A DNA stretch of 60,296 bases, the filler included, from Squatina squatina (Eukaryota), in assembly GCA_031763465.1 (NCBI GenBank). It is 3 parts of 3 records of this genome, joined end to end, with 100 filler letters (N's around TTAATTAATTAA, not from the genome) between each part and the next. Parts side by side here need not be neighbours in the genome. Positions count along the whole stretch, not along the records: positions 1 to 28,511 come from JARFOE010000115.1; 2 more parts are not named here. One strand, written 5' to 3'. Position 1 is the first letter of the stretch, and each line of letters begins with the position of its first letter. The notes under the pieces were generated by a model. That model was not told the DNA's origin. It saw only the letters and a list, made by a program, of their open reading frames with translations, and made no database searches. This document shows positions 5,317 to 59,820 of this stretch, piece after piece. The position numbers and the translations under genes were made by a program.

Positions 5317-5545
5317 ACACTATTCGAAGAAGAGCAGGGGAGTTCTCCTCGGTGTTGTGGACAATATTTATCCCTCAACCAAAATGGATTATCTGGTCAT
5401 TATCACATCGCTGTTTGTGGGGCATTGCTGTGGACAAATTGGCTGCTGCATTTCCTCCATTACAACAGTGACCGATAAAGTGGTTCATGGCTGTAAAGCA
5501 CTTTGGAATGTCCTGAGGGCATGAATGCAATTATATTAATGGAAG
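5317..5545 (+). mobile_element. SacSINE1/Deu-SINE-like SINE, 3' half
   Basis: cactattcgaagaagagcaggggagttctc...aaattggctgctgcatttcc...ggctgtaaagcactttgg matches the copy at 39955-40420. Confidence 0.85.
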
Positions 5546-6514
5546 TTCTTTCTTTCTTTATCTGAATTGGCAGCGGGTTGTCAAACCGATGTTCTTGTCG
5601 CTGTGCCTCCTTGTTTTTCAAGATCTGGCACTGCCACTTTAATATTAGACTTCTAAATGTAGCCTTCTGAATAAGTGTGCATGTTTTCTCTTTAGTATTC
5701 AGCATTACTCAACCGAAGCTAACAAGCTACCTGCTGACAGGCTCATAACTTAAATCTGCGCTGACAGGCAAACACTAAAGTCTTCATAAATAAGCTAAAT
5801 TATTTCCCAGAGCCTATGAAAAGTGGTGAATTCCTGAAACAGACAAACAAAATAGTAATTGAAGTTTATGTGTGTATATCAGGGCCGTACTCATTTCATA
5901 GTACTTACGGATATAATTGGAAACATATTTTATTTTTGCTTTCAATTCCCCAGATTCCTGAGCAGTTGCAAAATTTCCTCAGTGGTCCTATTAAGTGAAT
6001 AAAGTACCTTAACATGACAGATAAAATCTGCAACAAATAAAGCACTAAAACTGGTTTTCATTTGGCATTAACAAAGGATTATCATTCACAGAGGTAAGCA
6101 AGCCCATAAAAGAGTGCAATTTTAATTAGGATCACATTGATTCGTGCATCTCGGGGGAAATGGAATGACAAACAGCACTGGGCAGCAAATGAAGGAGAGC
6201 GACAGCATGGCTGGCCATCTGTGACATTACAGACCGTGTGCCATTTTATCTCTTTAAGTAAACTGATTGCGCCAGCCGAGCCTTTGAAACCCACGATGCG
6301 CCTTAAGTCTGCCAGTTCAGGTGCTGATCTGGCCTCACCAAGCCCGTCGACTATTCGAGCGGATTGGCACGCGGTGCTTGCCGTTCTGTAGTTTGAAGGT
6401 GCGCAGTTTGAAGCTGCGGCATTACATGGCAATATTAGCGAGCCGTTTCTGAAGTCATTGCAGCCCCAAGATGTGCGACAGCTTGTGGAAAGTATCACTA
6501 CAGTAGCTTCAGAA

Positions 6515-6816
6515 TGTAAGAAATAGCGCCTACGGCCCCTCAATTCAATAAGATCATGGCTGATCTTCAACCTCAACTCCACTTTCCCAATCTATCCCCA
6601 TATCCCTTGGTTCCCTTAGTGTCCAAATATCTATTGCTCTCAGCCTTGAATATGCTCAATGACTGAACATCCACAGCCCTCTGGGGTAGAGAATTCCAAA
6701 GATTCAGCACCTTCTGAGGAAAGAAATTTCTCCTCATCTCAGTCCTAAATGGCCTTCCCCTTATCCTGAGTCTATGACCCCTGGTTCTAGACTCTGTAGT
6801 CACAGGAAATAGCCTC
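6515..6816 (-). mobile_element. CR1/HER1-like LINE 3' end
   Basis: Minus strand encodes RLFPVTTESRTRGHRLRIRGRPFRTEMRRNFFPQKVLNLWNSLPQRAV..., the CR1 ORF2 C-terminus, followed by the 3' tail. Confidence 0.9.
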
Positions 6817-6916
6817 NNNNNNNNNNNNNNNNNNNNNNNNNNNNNNNNNNNNNNNNNNNNNNNNNNNNNNNNNNNNNNNNNNNNNNNNNNNNNNNNNNNN
6901 NNNNNNNNNNNNNNNN

Positions 6917-7105
6917 TCATTGAATATATTCAAAGCTGAGATAGGCAGATTTTTGAGCAACAAGGGAGTCAAAGTTTATGGGCGACACGCAGGAAAGTGG
7001 AGTTGAAGCAAATATCAGATCAGCCATGATCTCATTGAATTGTGCAGCAGGTTCAAAGGGCTGAATGGTTTATTCCTGATCCTATTTCTTATGTTCTTAT
7101 GTTGC
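6917..7105 (+). mobile_element. CR1/HER1-like LINE 3' end with (TTCTTATG)n tail
   Basis: aatatattcaaagctgagataggcagatttttg...gatcagccatgatctcattgaat...ttcttatgttcttatg. Confidence 0.9.
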
Positions 7106-7789
7106 CTTATGTATATGAAACTGGAGTCATTCGCGTGTGACGCAGAATTTTATGTGCATAAATATGATATCTATAGTGTGACACCGAAAGTGTGACAGGC
7201 AAACTAGACACAGTGCTTTTATATTCATAGATACTGGCTGGCTATCCAACTGGGACCCCATGGATCCATCCAGCGGTGTCAAGCTTCAGTATCAACCATC
7301 CTTTGGATGCTTGGACACATTGGTTGATCTAACATTGCATTTTTAGATGTAGTCTTGTCTGAAAAGGGACTGACTGCATGTCTGACTAAGACTGACATTA
7401 GCTCTGAAGCAGAAAATGCTCTCCTGTTTGTGAAGGGATTTGAGCAATTGCGCTGAATTCTTTAAACACGACCGTTCTATCTTTAAATAAATGTCGCACT
7501 GACATCTGAGCCATCCATTTTCGCAACGAGCCATCTATTATATAAAATCAGAAATCCAATGAATACAGATCAGGAGGTTTCATTTTTATTTATAAGTGCA
7601 AATTGATTTCTCCCTCCCCTTTATCAGATATTTATCTTTTATTACAGTAACGCTGTCGATACAGAATCAGATCCCACCGTGCCCTCCTAACAAAGAGATA
7701 TGCAGGTGGACTCTCAGTCACACACAGGCCGACTCACACATGCACGTATACTGACACTTCCAAATAATCGGAGGTATAAGCCTCCTGTA

Positions 7790-8640: not shown

Positions 8641-11600
8641 GGCGGTAGAGAAGATTATTCAATTCCAAACCACCCTGAATGAACAAAATAAACATGCTTC
8701 ATTAGTTTAATTTTTAATGTTCAGCAATTTTTTTTTTCTTCAAAGCCTTTTAAACACCATAGAACGTTAAACAGTGCTGTGTTAACTGTCATTTTGTGTT
8801 CAGATGGCTGGCTAAAAGATATCAGTAATCACATTTCCTATGTTGGAGATTTGCTGCTGGTCATGAGCTGGATCAATGAAACTCTATGGAGCCCTCCCAA
8901 AAAGTCTCAGCTCGAGCTTTGGCCATCCATCACCACAGCAGATGCTTGGCAGACTGGCTATGTCCTTAAGGTGGGATGTGAGTTGAATATTTGCTTTTAA
9001 AGGCAATTTGGAAATGAGATTTAATAAGTTCCACTAACTTACGCTCATAACTTTCTTGCAGACTTTCCTTTTAATTAAATATTAATATTAATTTAATATC
9101 AATTATTTATTTGCTATTGCAATCACACTTGTGCATCCTCAAAATTACTGAATGCCTGGATGCATTTTAATTTTATTAATCAATGTCTTGCTAAAGAACC
9201 ACATTGATTACATTGTGGGACTCACATCTGAAAAGGGCATGAGCAATCATAATATGATTATGCACAGTATGCAACTTTTATTTGCTAATTAACTTTGCCA
9301 AGTCACCTTCCACGTGCATAAATTTACAATGTCAAGACCCAAGGGATTAAAGAGAGTTGTTATTTACCACTAACTGGCTTATACTGGAGTGCGGTCCCAC
9401 GGGGTCAGCTGCCCTCCAGTAACTTGTACAAATAGCCATTTTGTTATGTACGATTCGGGAGAGAGAGAGTACAGGAGACCCTTAAACAGTGGGGACCTCA
9501 AGACCCATCCCAATCGTGTCCTCCTTGGTACACATATACATACACATTCACATTCTCCAGCAAACAGTCTTGGATGAGATGTTAAACCGAGGCCCCATCT
9601 GTAAANNNNNNNNNNNNNNNNNNNNNNNNNNNNNNNNNNNNNNNNNNNNNNNNNNNNNNNNNNNNNNNNNNNNNNNNNNNNNNNNNNNNNNNNNNNNNNN
9701 NNNNNTTGCAGACCATTCCCAGCGGAGTGAGTCAATGCACTTGGATGCCTCCCAAGGGCTTGTGTGCCAGGTGGGTGATGCTCTTGTATCCCTGATAGAA
9801 TATGACGGGCATCTCAGGCCGACGGTGAAGAAACTGCAAGAAAGAACAAATTACATTAGCTGATAAGTGCAAATTGTCAAACGCTAGAATCGGATTTCTG
9901 GAACGTGTAATAGATTCTACGGGAGCTAGAGGCAACGCTGATGAAACCTGGGGTGGTTTGACTCAAAATCTAATTTATTCTACATCATTATGAACAATGT
10001 CATATGACAAAAATGATACACACCATAAAAAAAGAATGTTAGTTTTACTAAATTAATATATTCAAATGAAAGTGTTTTCAATTAGTTGGCTTTGTGTCTC
10101 CCTAGATAATGTTATGCCTGGGGCTGGCTGTTGAAGATTCTCTTGTTACATTTCCATGATATTTCCTCATTAATTTACAGCTCTGATCCCTTATGCAGTG
10201 CAGGTCTAAAGAGAGCATAGTAGACTGCAGCTATTACACAAATTTAATAGCTCATCCAATCGGTTTCACGCGTGCAATCAAGACATCTCCATCTTTGTTT
10301 TAGTCAATAACTGGCCTTGTGATTTTCGGNNNNNNNNNNNNNNNNNNNNNNNNNNNNNNNNNNNNNNNNNNNNNNNNNNNNNNNNNNNNNNNNNNNNNNN
10401 NNNNNNNNNNNNNNNNNNNNNNNNNNNNNACTTTGGATCCCTCAGGGACCCCATGGGATTTGTGGATCATCATTTGAAAGTCTATAAAGGCTAACACCGT
10501 AAGGCTCCATTGGTGCACAAGCTCGCTAACCATGAGTGCAGCTCGCACAATGATTACCACACTCACTACTAGTGAGTCTCTATGCCATGGACTTTGCCTC
10601 ACCAAATTAGCCCACAGGCCACAGCCTAAAGCTTTCATAGCCAAAGAGACCCTTTAAATCACTTTATAAAGACATTTTATTTTCCTTTTATTAAAAGCAT
10701 GAGTGAAAACCTATGGTATCCTTCTGTTGTAAGACCAGGATTCAGAATCTTCCTTTATTCTCTTTTTAAAAGGGAAATCTATGGGAGACATGATGCAAAC
10801 ATTTAAAATTATTCAGGAAGCAGATAAAATCAAAGTTAGGAAGCCCTTTATTGCAGATATGTCGAACAGAAAAAAAAAGGGCCAACTTTTTTTTCTCACA
10901 CAATGTAGCTGAATCCTAATAGACAAAGAATTAATTCTGCCAAGAAAGGATCTGCTTGAATTAGAATTGCTTTTGGCTCAAGGTTTCTATAAAAATAGCT
11001 AATTTGTACATTTTTACAACACAGCTTATTAAGCAATTTATTCGGTAATTTTAAAACAAAAGGCATATCCTTTTCACACAAAAGACTATCATTCCAATGC
11101 TACAAAAATGTGCTACCACCAGTAACAGAANNNNNNNNNNNNNNNNNNNNNNNNNNNNNNNNNNNNNNNNNNNNNNNNNNNNNNNNNNNNNNNNNNNNNN
11201 NNNNNNNNNNNNNNNNNNNNNNNNNNNNNNGATTATTTCTTATGTTCTTATGTTAAGTAGAAAATGCATTAAGCAAGAAAAAGAAATAAAGCTATCTTTC
11301 CTTTGTGGAAAGCAACAAATCCACAAGGCATCCAGCAATACGAGATTGGAGATAGTCACACTGAGGCCAAGGACTATATGATGTCAATATCTGTATGGAA
11401 GTCACAGACAAAAAAAAATGATATTTGAATTGCCAGTAGACCAGATTTTCAGAACAGTTAAGGCTACAAATGAGTGCAAAACGCTATGGCAACAGAATGG
11501 AAGCTAAGTCCTTTATTTTTCGATCTGAATACCAAGAAGAGATTTAAATAAATTGGCCGCTTTTTATAAGAGTGAGTAGAGTTGTGAGATATCAACACTG

Positions 11601-13724: not shown

Positions 13725-13850
13725 ACTGTCTGATGAGCGGTCAATGTCGACACATTATTCTATCTGTCAGATGCTGACTGCCCTGCTGTGCAATCCCATT
13801 ATTTTCAGTTTCAAGTTCCGACTTGCAGTATTTATGTTTTTTGACTGATG
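13725..13850 (+). mobile_element. Old, degraded Penelope-like element 3' terminal repeat with decayed hammerhead core
   Basis: CTGATGA (13730-13736)...GACAC...cagatgctgactgccctgctgtg...ttcagtttcaagttccgacttgcagtattt resembles the reverse complement of 14370-14510. Confidence 0.55.
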
Positions 13851-14369: not shown

Positions 14370-14840
14370 TGATACAAAAGCAAAACACTGCAGATGCTGG
14401 AAATCTGAAATACAAACAAGAGAATGCTGGAAATACTCAGCAGGTCAGGTAGCATCTGTGGAGAGAGAAACAGAGTCAACGTTTCAGGCCTGTGACCTTT
14501 CATCAGAATGGGAAAAGTTAAAGATGTAACAGTTTTTTACGCAAGAGTAGGGTCAGGGAAAGGGAGGGGAGGAAAGAACAAAAGGGAAGGACCGTGATAG
14601 GGTGGAAGGCAGGAGAGATTAAGAGACAAAGGGATGATGGTGTAAAGCACACGGAGATGGTAATGGGGCAAGTTCAGAAACAAAGGATGAGTCTAGCTAA
14701 GGTGTCAATGAAAATGGCCGAAACATCAACAGCTGCCATGGGAAAGAGAGAACAAAACAGAAAAAAAATATAGAGTCAGGGGCTGCAGTCTGAAATTGTT
14801 GAACTCGACGTTAAGTCCAGAAGGCTGTAATGTGCCTAAA
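14370..14840 (-). mobile_element. Penelope-like retroelement 3' end: GIY-YIG endonuclease C-terminus, 3' UTR and hammerhead-bearing terminal repeat
   Basis: Minus strand from 14839 encodes LGTLQPSGLNVEFNNFR (the L-x-T-x-x-P-x-G-L-N end motif of PLE GIY-YIG domains), then a pyrimidine-rich UTR, then CTGATGA-A-AGGTC-ACA-GGCCT-GAAAC-GTT at 14506-14478. Confidence 0.8.
14472..14510 (-). ncRNA. Minimal type-I hammerhead ribozyme motif (PLE-associated)
   Basis: Core CUGAUGA and GAAA intact; 5-bp stem II (AGGUC/GGCCU) after one extra A; palindromic AACGUU in place of stem III; stem I is degraded in this copy. Confidence 0.65.
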
Positions 14841-16373
14841 NNNNNNNNNNNNNNNNNNNNNNNNNNNNNNNNNNNNNNNNNNNNNNNNNNNNNNNNNNNN
14901 NNNNNNNNNNNNNNNNNNNNNNNNNNNNNNNNNNNNNNNNNNNNNNNNNNNNNNNNNNNNNNNNNNNNNNNNNNNNNNNNNNNNNNNNNNNNNNNNNNNN
15001 NNNNNNNNNNNNNNNNNNNNNNNNNNNNNNNNNNNNNNNNNNNNNNNNNNNNNNNNNNNNNNNNNNNNNNNNNNNNNNNNNNNNNNNNNNNNNNNNNNNN
15101 NNNNNNNNNNNNNNNNNNNNNNNNNNNNNNNNNNNNNNNNNNNNNNNNNNNNNNNNNNNNNNNNNNNNNNNNNNNNNNNNNNNNNNNNNNNNNNNNNNNN
15201 NNNNNNNNNNNNNNNNNNNNNNNNNNNNNNNNNNNNNNNNNNNNNNNNNNNNNNNNNNNNNNNNNNNNNNNNNNNNNNNNNNNNNNNNNNNNNNNNNNNN
15301 NNNNNNNNNNNNNNNNNNNNNNNNNNNNNNNNNNNNNNNNNNNNNNNNNNNNNNNNNNNNNNNNNNNNNNNNNNNNNNNNNNNNNNNNNNNNNNNNNNNN
15401 NNNNNNNNNNNNNNNNNNNNNNNNNNNNNNNNNNNNNNNNNNNNNNNNNNNNNNNNNNNNNNNNNNNNNNNNNNNNNNNNNNNNNNNNNNNNNNNNNNNN
15501 NNNNNNNNNNNNNNNNNNNNNNNNNNNNNNNNNNNNNNNNNNNNNNNNNNNNNNNNNNNNNNNNNNNNNNNNNNNNNNNNNNNNNNNNNNNNNNNNNNNN
15601 NNNNNNNNNNNNNNNNNNNNNNNNNNNNNNNNNNNNNNNNNNNNNNNNNNNNNNNNNNATCATTGTTAATTACGGTGGGATTAATAAAGTTCCACTAATT
15701 GTCAAAGCAAGGAAGTTCCACAGTGCACATTTTTACAAGATGCACATTTATACTGCAGCCTGTGTTTTATAGGCTGACAAACAAGGTAACAGTGGCTGTA
15801 CAATGTCCAGACGTGGACTATAATTTTCAGTTTCTAAATTACAGCGAGGAATGCACAATAATCAACAGCACGCTGCTCATGTAGTGAGCTTTACTTTCAA
15901 TAAAGATATATTGTTCCTACACAGTGTGCCTGGAGATGTATTGTGTCATTTTTGTTTAAGAAATCAGATTTATTGCAGTGCCTTGATACTAGTGACTCAA
16001 CATGGAATAGTTCCTGTTCTCTTTCTCAATGCATATTATGGTCACTAATGAATTTTAATAAGTGACTGCGCTTGGGACTTGGGTGCTGCTAATGTGTGTC
16101 ACAGAATGTAAATTATTGCCAAAGGTCCCTGCCATGGCAAAGAAATTAAAACATACTTACTGCAAAGCCCACATTTCCTGCTAAGACCTCGTCTATGAGC
16201 GCTATATACTGAACTGACCAAACCTACCAGTTTACTGACGCTTAGTACATATGACTACATGTGAGAGGGCAGTNNNNNNNNNNNNNNNNNNNNNNNNNNN
16301 NNNNNNNNNNNNNNNNNNNNNNNNNNNNNNNNNNNNNNNNNNNNNNNNNNNNNNNNNNNNNNNNNNNNNNNNN

Positions 16374-20629: not shown

Positions 20630-20987
20630 AAGAAAAAACTTGCATTTACATAGCGTTTTTCATGACCTCAGGACGACCCAGAGCACTTTACAGCCAATGT
20701 AGTACTCTTTTTGAAGTGTAGCCACTGTTGTAATGTAGGAAACGCGGCAGCCAATTTGCGCACAGCAAGATCCCACAAACAGCAATGACCAGATAATCTG
20801 TTTTTCGTGAGGTTGGTTGAGGGATAAATATTGGCCAGGACACTGGGAAGAAATTCCTTGCTCTCCTGCGAAATGGTGCCACGGGATCTTTGATGTCCAC
20901 CTGAGAGGGGAGGCGGAGTTTGACGTCACATCCGAAAGGCAGCACCTCCGGCAGTGCAGCACTCCCTCGGTGTCAGCCTAGGTTTTT
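20630..20987 (-). mobile_element. SacSINE1/Deu-SINE-like SINE (head lost in gap)
   Basis: Close reverse-complement match to 39955-40420, including the L2-type tail (ttgcatttacatagcg on plus). Confidence 0.9.
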
Positions 20988-24309: not shown

Positions 24310-24767
24310 AGATACATAAGAACATAAGAACCAGGAGCAGGAGTAGGCCATTCAGCCCCTCGAACCTGCTCCGCCATTCAACAAGATCATGGCTGATCTT
24401 CTATCTCAACTCCACTTTCCCACCTGATCCCCATATCTCTTGATTCCCCAAGAGTCCAAAAATCTATCTATCTCATCCTTGACTATAATCAATGATTCAG
24501 CATCCACATCCCTTTGGAGAAGTGATTCCAAAGATTCACAGCCCTCTGAGTGAAGAAATTCCTCCTCATCTCAGTCCTAAATGACCGACCCCTTATCCAT
24601 AAGACTATAAGACCATAAGAAGTAGGAACAGGAGTAGGCCATTCGGCCCCTCGAGCCTGCTCTACCATTCGATTGGACCATGGCTGATCCGAAATTCCTC
24701 AAGTCCACCTTCCTGCCCTTTCCCCATAACCCTTGATTCCCTTACCGATTAGAAATCTATCTATCTC
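24310..24767 (-). mobile_element. CR1-like 3' end interrupted at about 24600 by a second CR1-like 3' end
   Basis: First copy breaks at cccttatcc; a new tail starts with cataagactataagaccataagaagtaggaacaggagtaggcc. Confidence 0.85.
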
Positions 24768-58391: not shown

Positions 58392-59655
58392 NNNNNNNNN
58401 NNNNNNNNNNNNNNNNNNNNNNNNNNNNNNNNNNNNNNNNNNNNNNNNNNNNNNNNNNNNNNNNNNNNNNNNNNNNNNNNNNNNNNNNNNNNNNNNNNNN
58501 NNNNNNNNNNNNNNNNNNNNNNNNNNNNNNNNNNNNNNNNNNNNNNNNNNNNNNNNNNNNNNNNNNNNNNNNNNNNNNNNNNNNNNNNNNNNNNNNNNNN
58601 NNNNNNNNNNNNNNNNNNNNNNNNNNNNNNNNNNNNNNNNNNNNNNNNNNNNNNNNNNNNNNNNNNNNNNNNNNNNNNNNNNNNNNNNNNNNNNNNNNNN
58701 NNNNNCGAGTAAGCTATAGCGAGGTATCTGGGTCACACGGCAGCAAGTAAAGCTGTTGTCGGGTTAGTCCTAATCTGGTTGGCATTCATTTGACATTAAA
58801 AGTCATTGGGAATATGTTTTATTAAGAAGGCTTAAATAGCTTGCCCTTGCCTTTGCTTATAAAGGCTGCATTTCACCATGCCCAACTGCATGTGCCTTAA
58901 ACAATTCTGTTTATTCTTGGGTCCTTTTACATTTCATGGAAATTAATTTGACTGGGCATGTCAGGCATTCTTGCATTTGATAATTACAAAATGTTTTGGT
59001 GGATGATTTTTATCCAAAAACTGAAGTGAAGGGAAAGTGTTGAAGAAATTCTCCACATCCCATTTCTCCAGCATTGTTAACCCTCCCATAATTAAGCATT
59101 AATTATGCTGCATCTTTCTTTAAAATTATGTTGTAATAGGATGAGACTGATTTGTAAATTAATTTTAGAAGTCTGCACATTGATAGTTATTTAGTTTGAA
59201 ATCAATTGAATAATTACTTTGTACTGAAGCATATTTTGAATTGTAAATGGGTGAACTTAACATGTATTCATATTGCAACTACTAGTCTAAATATTTAGCG
59301 ATTTAGTCTGACAACATTCCATTTACACTGCCTAGGTGACACTCGAATTCTGCTGCCCAGGAAAGAGTTTGGTGCATGTGTGTTTATACGCACACATAGT
59401 TCCTCTCCTAGCAGTTACATCTCAGTTCTTAGACAGTGCAGGCTGTTACCTACAATTAAACTTAATGTTTTAAGTATAAAAAGTGCAAAGGAGGTCTAAA
59501 GGACCCTCTGAGCATTTTTTACCCCTGGCTTTACATTGTACTGCAGTCCACACGANNNNNNNNNNNNNNNNNNNNNNNNNNNNNNNNNNNNNNNNNNNNN
59601 NNNNNNNNNNNNNNNNNNNNNNNNNNNNNNNNNNNNNNNNNNNNNNNNNNNNNNN

Positions 59656-59820
59656 CTGCAGATGCTGGAATCTAGAATATAAACAAAAAATGCTGGAAAA
59701 ACTCAGCAGGTCAGGACCTGTGGAGAGAAAAACAGAGTTAATGTTTCAGGTTGATGACCCTTCGTCAAAACTTTCTGATGAAGGGTCATCGACCCAAAAC
59801 GTTAACGTTTTTCCAGTATT
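59656..59820. mobile_element. Penelope-like terminal repeat with inverted partial duplication (two hammerhead-like cores)
   Basis: Same repeat as 14370-14510; arms 59737-59767 and 59776-59806 are reverse complements (26/31) around an 8-nt spacer. Confidence 0.8.

What the first reader, a model, noticed from the sequence alone, without database searches (positions are those of the whole stretch)
14370..14840. Hammerhead ribozyme core at the 3' end of a shark Penelope-like retroelement
Seen: the minus strand gives a GIY-YIG end motif (LGTLQPSGLNVEFNNFR). About 280 nt later it reads CUGAUGA-A-AGGUC-ACA-GGCCU-GAAA-CG-UU, i.e. both catalytic boxes, a 5-bp stem II, one extra A after A9 and a palindromic AACGUU instead of a true stem III. 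Known: Penelope-like elements carry minimal type-I hammerheads thought to cleave as dimers through such palindromes. Inference: a very common shark repeat end (4 copies in this 60 kb) is a self-cleaving RNA motif, so shark genomes may hold very large numbers of them, some in introns.
Basis: partly seen in the sequence, partly recalled or inferred. Interest (0 to 1): 0.7.

Follow-up and report, generated by a model that had tools for sequence, protein, structure and literature searches.

The report
Penelope retroelement hammerhead, decayed copy
This is a worn copy of a very common jumping gene of a cartilaginous fish that carries the small "hammerhead" RNA motif already described for this class of elements; thousands of sister copies keep the motif intact and are predicted to cut weakly, but this copy has lost one of its stems and likely no longer cuts itself.

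Summary
Window 14372-14840 (minus strand) is the 3' part of a Neptune-type Penelope-like element (PLE): endonuclease end, 280-nt spacer, minimal type I hammerhead, tail. The family fits the published minimal PLE hammerhead (PMC4209133). The genome has 2,792 exact intact cores (control 0), and pair 10.1-11.1 is G-U, A-U or G-C, never A-C, in 110 copies. In four other organisms the frequent variants lie at N7, loop II, that pair and the palindrome's CpG, never at the 12 conserved core bases. This copy keeps only 2 of 4 stem I pairs, and none of the 5 hammerhead-region copies in the window is intact. The motif lies at the junction between element units, 138 nt before the next ORF start. Copy 5' ends cluster at stem I (26 of 44), so it likely sits at the front of the element's RNA rather than only at its 3' end. 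Cleavage was not shown, and a genomic cut-site footprint was weak to absent. Side finding: small DNA transposons insert repeatedly at the predicted cut site (97 matches against 1 and 0 at control sites). The scan has noted this motif in about 1,000 other windows. New member of a known kind.

The parts
14372..14840 (-). 3' part of a Neptune-type Penelope-like element; its upstream end runs into an 818-base N run, so its full length is unknown
   Evidence: 82-87% identical to the 39 other copies scored out of 7,464 candidates; 76% to near-full-length copy L107 over 447 nt; no PLE ORF match beyond the N run
14786..14839 (-). last 18 codons of the GIY-YIG endonuclease; the family stop codon is lost in this copy
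14511..14785 (-). pyrimidine-rich 3' UTR / pseudo-LTR between the ORF end and the hammerhead
14507..14510 (-). 5' strand of stem I, damaged (CAUU; family AGUU); in the family this is the inferred transcription start
14500..14506 (-). catalytic box CUGAUGA (C3-A9), followed by the extra A at 14499
14486..14498 (-). stem II, 5 bp with one U-G and an A10.1-U11.1 closing pair; loop ACA
14478..14485 (-). GAAA box, CG palindrome and UU; predicted cut after 14478; ACGU could form a 4-bp stem III only between two copies
14474..14477 (-). 3' strand of stem I (GACU)
14410..14473 (-). leader after the cut site, up to the first common 3' end of copies
14372..14409 (-). optional 'tail' of about 35-38 nt, up to the second common 3' end; in other copies it continues into the 5' UTR and ORF
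   Evidence: 27 of 79 uncensored copies carry it
13729..13850 (+). older, heavily decayed copy of the same family, core broken
45827..45908 (-). short copy that lacks the CUGANGA box
59652..59806 (.). head-to-head pair: minus-strand copy 59772-59652 and short inverted copy 59773-59806; both cores carry substitutions

Best explanation
The stretch is the 3' part of a Neptune-type Penelope-like retroelement whose terminal repeat carries the minimal hammerhead motif known from this class; intact family members are predicted to self-cleave after GUU only slowly and with help (a second copy or the element's protein), and this copy, with 2 of 4 stem I pairs, likely no longer cleaves on its own. Shown here: the element's domains, the motif, pair-preserving differences between subfamilies, two 3' ends about 35 nt apart, inverted partners, and the continuation of the tail into the next ORF. 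Inferred: the motif is selected only in the few source elements and decays neutrally after insertion. The element's RNA likely starts at stem I, so the ribozyme would lie in the first 37 nt and a cut would remove a 33-nt capped leader, or split tandem transcripts into units of about 3.1 kb. A lone copy is predicted to fold into a helix between the core (UGAYG) and CGUUR that blocks the active form.
For: Element: sister copies hold RT, linker and GIY-YIG on one strand ahead of the repeat (L107, L115); homologues in Mobula, Hypanus and Chiloscyllium at E 1e-34 to 1e-60; inverted 5'-truncated partners in L085 and L136; tail in 27 of 79 copies, as described in PMC8557442 and PMC11167929. Motif: fits the published consensus; 2,792 exact intact cores, control 0. 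Pairing: 10.1-11.1 is GU 57, AU 32, GC 18, AC 0, other 3 of 110 (Fisher p=0.0013); 2.1-1.1 is UA 69, UG 19 of 110. In contigs of four other coded organisms the 10 places that vary at 8% or more within the hammerhead listing fall on 8 positions (N7, three loop II bases, 10.1, 11.1, 15.2, 16.2) and on none of the 12 conserved core bases. Position: tail runs into the 5' UTR in 102 exact matches; ATG 138 nt after the cut site; that frame reads on as the PLE protein start. 5' ends: 26 of 44 defined ends lie within -10..+3 of C3, only 3 between -11 and -110, 9 more copies are long and 39 are cut by N runs (p<1e-12 against a uniform spread). Decay: 24 of 61 keep both boxes, 9 of 61 are fully intact. 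Inactive monomer fold in all 6 sequences folded.
Against: No cleavage was measured. Rfam finds no hammerhead. Across genomic copies the core is no better conserved than its flanks. The pair changes may rest on two or three events inherited by subfamilies, and only one family was found (a loose search for others gave 6 matches against 9 controls). Folding z-scores of single copies are not significant (+1.1 to -0.7), and the active dimer is 10-20 kcal/mol above the best co-fold. Cut-site starts: 32 against 16, 6 and 9 at neighbouring offsets, but about 11 of 30 inspected are stem-I fold-backs or small indels, and 0 of 67 copies that run into the 5' UTR start at the cut. Only 1 of 433 loci holds two intact cores on one strand, in a fragmented assembly. 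GIY-YIG Pfam scores of the homologues are below the curated cut-off (17.7-21.7 against 22.6). The transcription start is inferred from DNA ends only.
Confidence: 0.8

Rival explanations
1. The motif descends from a hammerhead but no longer cuts in this lineage. It is kept as a structure or sequence signal (promoter-proximal element, protein-binding site, priming or fold-back site).
For: No clear cut-site footprint; predicted self-blocking fold; in the anole PLE, core mutants do not affect insertion in vitro and no RNA-seq reads end at the site (PMC11167929); Naiad PLEs thrive without canonical hammerheads (PMC8557442); 8 of 9 Xenopus retrozyme dimers did not cleave (bioRxiv 2026.07.22.740005).
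Against: All 12 core bases and a UH triplet are kept across subfamilies and four other organisms while N7 and loop II change; the anole motif does cleave when protein is added.
Confidence: 0.13
2. The many dispersed copies act as self-cleaving elements inside host transcripts (introns, UTRs) and shape host RNA.
For: At least 2,792 intact cores; 30% of Penelope-like elements are intronic in the whale shark (10.1101/443036).
Against: Most copies are decayed; single minimal motifs showed no cleavage in PMC4209133; this copy lacks stem I; the core decays like its flanks; no host gene found beside this copy (110 frames scanned, one sub-threshold hit).
Confidence: 0.05
3. The likeness to a hammerhead is chance in an abundant repeat.
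For: No Rfam hit; no thermodynamic signal.
Against: Position in the PLE terminal repeat, extra base after A9, palindrome, stems I and II and pair-preserving changes all match an independent published consensus.
Confidence: 0.02

Closest known systems
Minimal type I hammerheads (min-HHR) in the pseudo-LTRs of metazoan Penelope-like elements (Cervera and De la Pena 2014, PMC4209133; main text parts 1-3 of 4 and supplement part 2 of 3 read)
   Same: U-rich lead, short stem I, CUGANGA plus one extra base, stem II, GAAA, two-base palindrome, UH; mostly single dispersed copies; G-C, G-U and A-U closing pairs all occur in the published alignment; thousands per genome (about 4,000 in coelacanth, 9,000 in Xenopus).
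   Different: No shark, skate or chimaera is named in the main text parts read or in the supplement text searched. Here one family dominates, and the window copy lacks stem I.
Neptune clade of endonuclease-bearing PLEs (as defined in PMC8557442; passages read)
   Same: RT followed by a cysteine linker and C-terminal GIY-YIG; pseudo-LTR; inverted 5'-truncated partner; optional 30-40 nt tail.
Poseidon element of the green anole, PAc (PMC11167929; results section part 2 and passages read)
   Same: Hammerhead at the junction of pseudo-LTR and ORF start; two 3' ends that define the tail.
   Different: In PAc the ORF starts inside stem II; here the main ATG is 138 nt past the cut site. PAc cleavage was shown and is protein-assisted; here it is untested.
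Non-LTR retrozymes (PMC7229834, passages; bioRxiv 2026.07.22.740005, parts 1 and 3 of 5)
   Same: Type I hammerheads related to PLE terminal repeats; the preprint reports them in one chondrichthyan genome.
   Different: Retrozymes are short tandem repeats with a hammerhead in each unit; these copies are dispersed and tied to a PLE ORF. The preprint's supplements could not be read, so overlap with this family is unknown.

Membership tests
min-HHR of metazoan PLEs | Both catalytic boxes and a UH triplet | tested here: met
   Window copy; 2,792 exact genome matches
min-HHR of metazoan PLEs | Extra base between A9 and 10.1 | tested here: met
   A in 104 of 110 copies
min-HHR of metazoan PLEs | Stem II, usually closed by G10.1-C11.1 | tested here: met
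   G-C in 1,428 exact matches; G-U and A-U in other subfamilies, no A-C in 110; window copy has A-U
min-HHR of metazoan PLEs | Palindromic 15.2-16.2, no monomeric stem III | tested here: met
   CG in 73 of 110; the rest mostly CA or TG, as CpG decay gives
min-HHR of metazoan PLEs | Stem I of 3-5 bp in the family | tested here: met
   AGUU with RACU
min-HHR of metazoan PLEs | Stem I intact in the window copy | tested here: not met
   2 pairs only
min-HHR of metazoan PLEs | Located in the terminal repeat of a PLE | tested here: met
min-HHR of metazoan PLEs | Self-cleavage as dimer, with forced stem III or with protein | not testable with these tools
   Needs a bench assay; the genomic footprint was inconclusive
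Endonuclease-bearing PLE, Neptune clade | One ORF with RT then C-terminal GIY-YIG | tested here: met
   Order in L107 and L115; Pfam hits on homologues below cut-off
Endonuclease-bearing PLE, Neptune clade | CX2-5CxxC linker before the endonuclease | tested here: met
   CX4CxxC in L068 and the homologues; this linker is shared with Nematis
Endonuclease-bearing PLE, Neptune clade | RT phylogeny groups with Neptune | not tested
Endonuclease-bearing PLE, Neptune clade | Inverted truncated partner and optional 30-40 nt tail | tested here: met
Non-LTR retrozyme | Short tandem units, each with a hammerhead | tested here: not met
   1 of 433 loci has two intact cores on one strand, 1,365 nt apart
Rfam hammerhead models | Covariance-model match | tested here: not met
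   No hammerhead family at E up to 1 in the window

The most novel reading that the evidence does not exclude
In this family the hammerhead is the first 37 nucleotides of the element's capped RNA and works as a switch: a self-blocking helix holds it shut until the element's own protein or a second RNA opens it, and the cut then removes the cap 138 nt before the start codon, moving the RNA from translation to copying or decay. Most of the short genomic copies would be reverse transcripts of this uncut leader.
Probability: 0.3. Interest if true: 0.6.

Novelty: new member of a known kind. Interest (0 to 1): 0.27.

Why it matters
As a motif it extends a known class to cartilaginous fishes, which the papers I read do not describe in their text, apart from a preprint that counts hammerhead tandem repeats in one chondrichthyan. 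Its value is as test material. What hammerheads do for Penelope-like elements is open, and a family with thousands of intact copies, subfamilies with different closing pairs and sharply clustered copy ends gives direct predictions for where the RNA starts and what a cut would remove. The transposon hot spot at the cut site matters as a caution: a DNA end at that position need not come from RNA cleavage.

Tried and rejected
Rfam scan: no hammerhead. Search for other hammerhead families in the genome with a loose pattern: 6 matches, 9 controls; the pattern demanded G10.1, C11.1 and a CG palindrome, so other forms would be missed. Cut-site footprint, a lead from earlier scan notes: 32 starts at the cut, 16 at -1 (about 10 are deletions between two TGA words), 6 at -2, 9 at +1 (stricter pattern, pass rate about 0.20 against 0.31); of 30 cut-site loci about 6 are fold-backs through the stem I word, about 5 small indels, and the 2 with target duplications share 3 bases with the target; 0 of 67 UTR-continuing copies start there. 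Judged inconclusive. Cap-derived G before AGUU: 46 G, 42 A, 19 T (p=2.5e-6 against composition), but in both cases with a visible duplication the G is also in the target; suggestive only. Splicing: several acceptor-like words flank the motif, but the strand is pyrimidine-rich and no GT-AG joint appeared in laid contigs. Sequencing runs: no RNA holder listed; only contigs of uncertain kind were available, so nothing is concluded on expression or RNA ends. Host gene: 110 frames of 48 aa or more between 7,000 and 22,900, one sub-threshold hit. Earlier notes for this genome or look-alike stretches: none. Literature searches for hammerhead with shark, Chondrichthyes or elasmobranch gave 1, 5 and 0 papers; most subscription papers and repeat databases are not covered.

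Full report
Observation. On the minus strand the frame LGTLQPSGLNVEFNNFRL covers 14839-14786, and about 280 nt later come CUGAUGA, an extra A, a 5-bp stem II, GAAA, CG and UU. The upstream end runs into an 818-base N run, and nothing beyond it matches the element's ORF, so the copy is likely 5'-truncated. Four copies, one short inverted partner and a tail fragment lie in the window. Rfam has no matching hammerhead model.

The element. The stretch has 7,464 candidates in the genome; the 39 other copies scored are 82-87% identical. Longer copies carry RT, a CX4CxxC linker and a GIY-YIG domain ahead of this repeat, with homologues named from rays and a bamboo shark. Pfam GIY-YIG scores of the homologues fall just under the cut-off. 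Copies show the PLE hallmarks of PMC8557442 (passages): inverted truncated partners (L085, L136) and an optional tail, present in 27 of 79 uncensored copies. I call it Neptune-type from the linker; no tree was built. Two overlapping copies put the unit at about 3.1 kb.

The motif in the family. A strict pattern with G10.1-C11.1 has 1,428 exact matches and a wider intact-core pattern 2,792, both with 0 controls. The layout is that of the published minimal PLE hammerhead, including the extra base and the CG palindrome (PMC4209133). Among 110 ungapped copies (the 20 segments from loci L031-L060, chosen by the core pattern, were left out), pair 10.1-11.1 is GU 57, AU 32, GC 18, AC 0, other 3, and pair 2.1-1.1 is UA 69, UG 19. 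These are subfamily states and may reflect few events. In contigs of four other coded organisms, frequent variants fall on N7, loop II, 10.1, 11.1 and the palindrome's CpG, not on the 12 conserved core bases. Against this, the core of genomic copies is no better kept than its flanks, as expected of neutral decay, and no second family was found.

This copy. Its stem I reads CAUU against GACU and forms 2 pairs; the family has AGUU against RACU. Stem II has gained a U-G pair. The other window copies have damaged or missing boxes. In 92 copies chosen by a downstream anchor, 61 could be scored: 24 keep both boxes and the UH triplet, 9 are fully intact. That anchor has 8,756 exact matches and is exact in about a third of well-kept copies; 3 hits in 88 kb of random non-N sequence point the same way. 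The family therefore has tens of thousands of copies, most of them broken.

Where the motif sits. The sequence after the motif is also the front of the next unit: in 102 exact matches the tail runs on into a 5' UTR, the ATG lies 138 nt past the cut site, and that frame reads on as the protein's start. Of 44 copies with a defined 5' end, 26 begin within -10..+3 of C3 and only 3 between -11 and -110; 9 more are long and 39 are cut by N runs. Fold-back copies join through the stem I word. A G before AGUU is enriched, but target sequence can explain it. These DNA ends suggest that the RNA starts at stem I. This reading came from earlier scan notes and was tested here. An internal promoter with the start in the terminal repeat is known for Drosophila Penelope (PMC2377424 and PMC8557442, passages).

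Mechanism. Shown: architecture, pairing, position. Inferred: intact RNAs cut after GUU, slowly, through a 4-bp ACGU helix between two copies or with the element's protein, as published for other PLEs. All 6 sequences folded prefer a helix between UGAYG and CGUUR that buries the core, and the active dimer is 10-20 kcal/mol above the best co-fold; this would suit a need for help but is only a prediction. A cut would remove a 33-nt leader or split tandem transcripts. Evidence that cutting happens in the animal is lacking: cut-site starts exceed neighbouring offsets only modestly and have other explanations, none of 67 UTR-continuing copies starts there, and no raw RNA reads were available.

Side finding. 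Of 185 anchored copies without GAAA, about 30 of the 100 listed begin with a G/C-rich end followed by RTT. The matching upstream junction has 97 exact matches, 88 of them with GG after the triplet, against 1 and 0 at two other ATT sites of the same repeat. Of 20 loci read, 3 are point changes and about 15 start with related inverted-repeat ends; one shows both ends (L416). This looks like a target preference of small DNA transposons with a 3-bp duplication, like the ANT type of PMC4482050 (passages); the assignment was not tested.

Literature and verdict. Searches for hammerhead with shark, Chondrichthyes or elasmobranch gave 1, 5 and 0 papers. Of those listed I opened two: a review where 'shark' refers to the name and a 2026 preprint that reports hammerhead tandem repeats in one chondrichthyan (supplements not readable). 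PMC4209133 (supplement search), PMC8557442 and PMC7229834 have no hit for shark. The scan itself holds 1,001 notes with these words in at least 28 genomes. Verdict: a real, known kind of motif in a lineage not described in the papers read, seen here in a decayed copy. Interest 0.27.

Noticed in passing
G000, loci L414-L433 and L187-L209: Small inverted-repeat elements of several subfamilies insert right after the RTT triplet at the hammerhead's predicted cut site: 97 exact junction matches against 1 and 0 at two control ATT sites. ATT targets outnumber GTT although GTT is the family state. Such inserts would break the ribozyme and can mimic a cleavage footprint.
   Followed up: partly
L208, L210, L222, L226, L228, L237; window 59652-59806: Head-to-head fold-back copies; several join through the AACT word shared by the two strands of stem I.
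   Followed up: partly
L231:1-170 (minus): One copy begins at the predicted cut site and runs through the tail into the ORF start; a single case.
   Followed up: partly
L330:1486-1604 (minus): An upstream ATG lies just after the hammerhead; removing about 95 nt between a weak GT and the acceptor-like word before the main ATG would put the two in frame. No such joint was seen in laid contigs.
   Followed up: partly
window 14841-15658: An 818-base N run abuts the element; many copies in the genome also end at N runs (39 of 92), so the assembly under-counts the family.
   Followed up: no
window 10478-10654 (+): Weak Pfam calponin-homology hit (E 0.007, below cut-off); probably chance.
   Followed up: no
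window 20635-20967, 5323-5555, 40075-40423, 49126-49240; 6535-7115, 24310-24767: Other dispersed repeats recur in the window; not classified.
   Followed up: no
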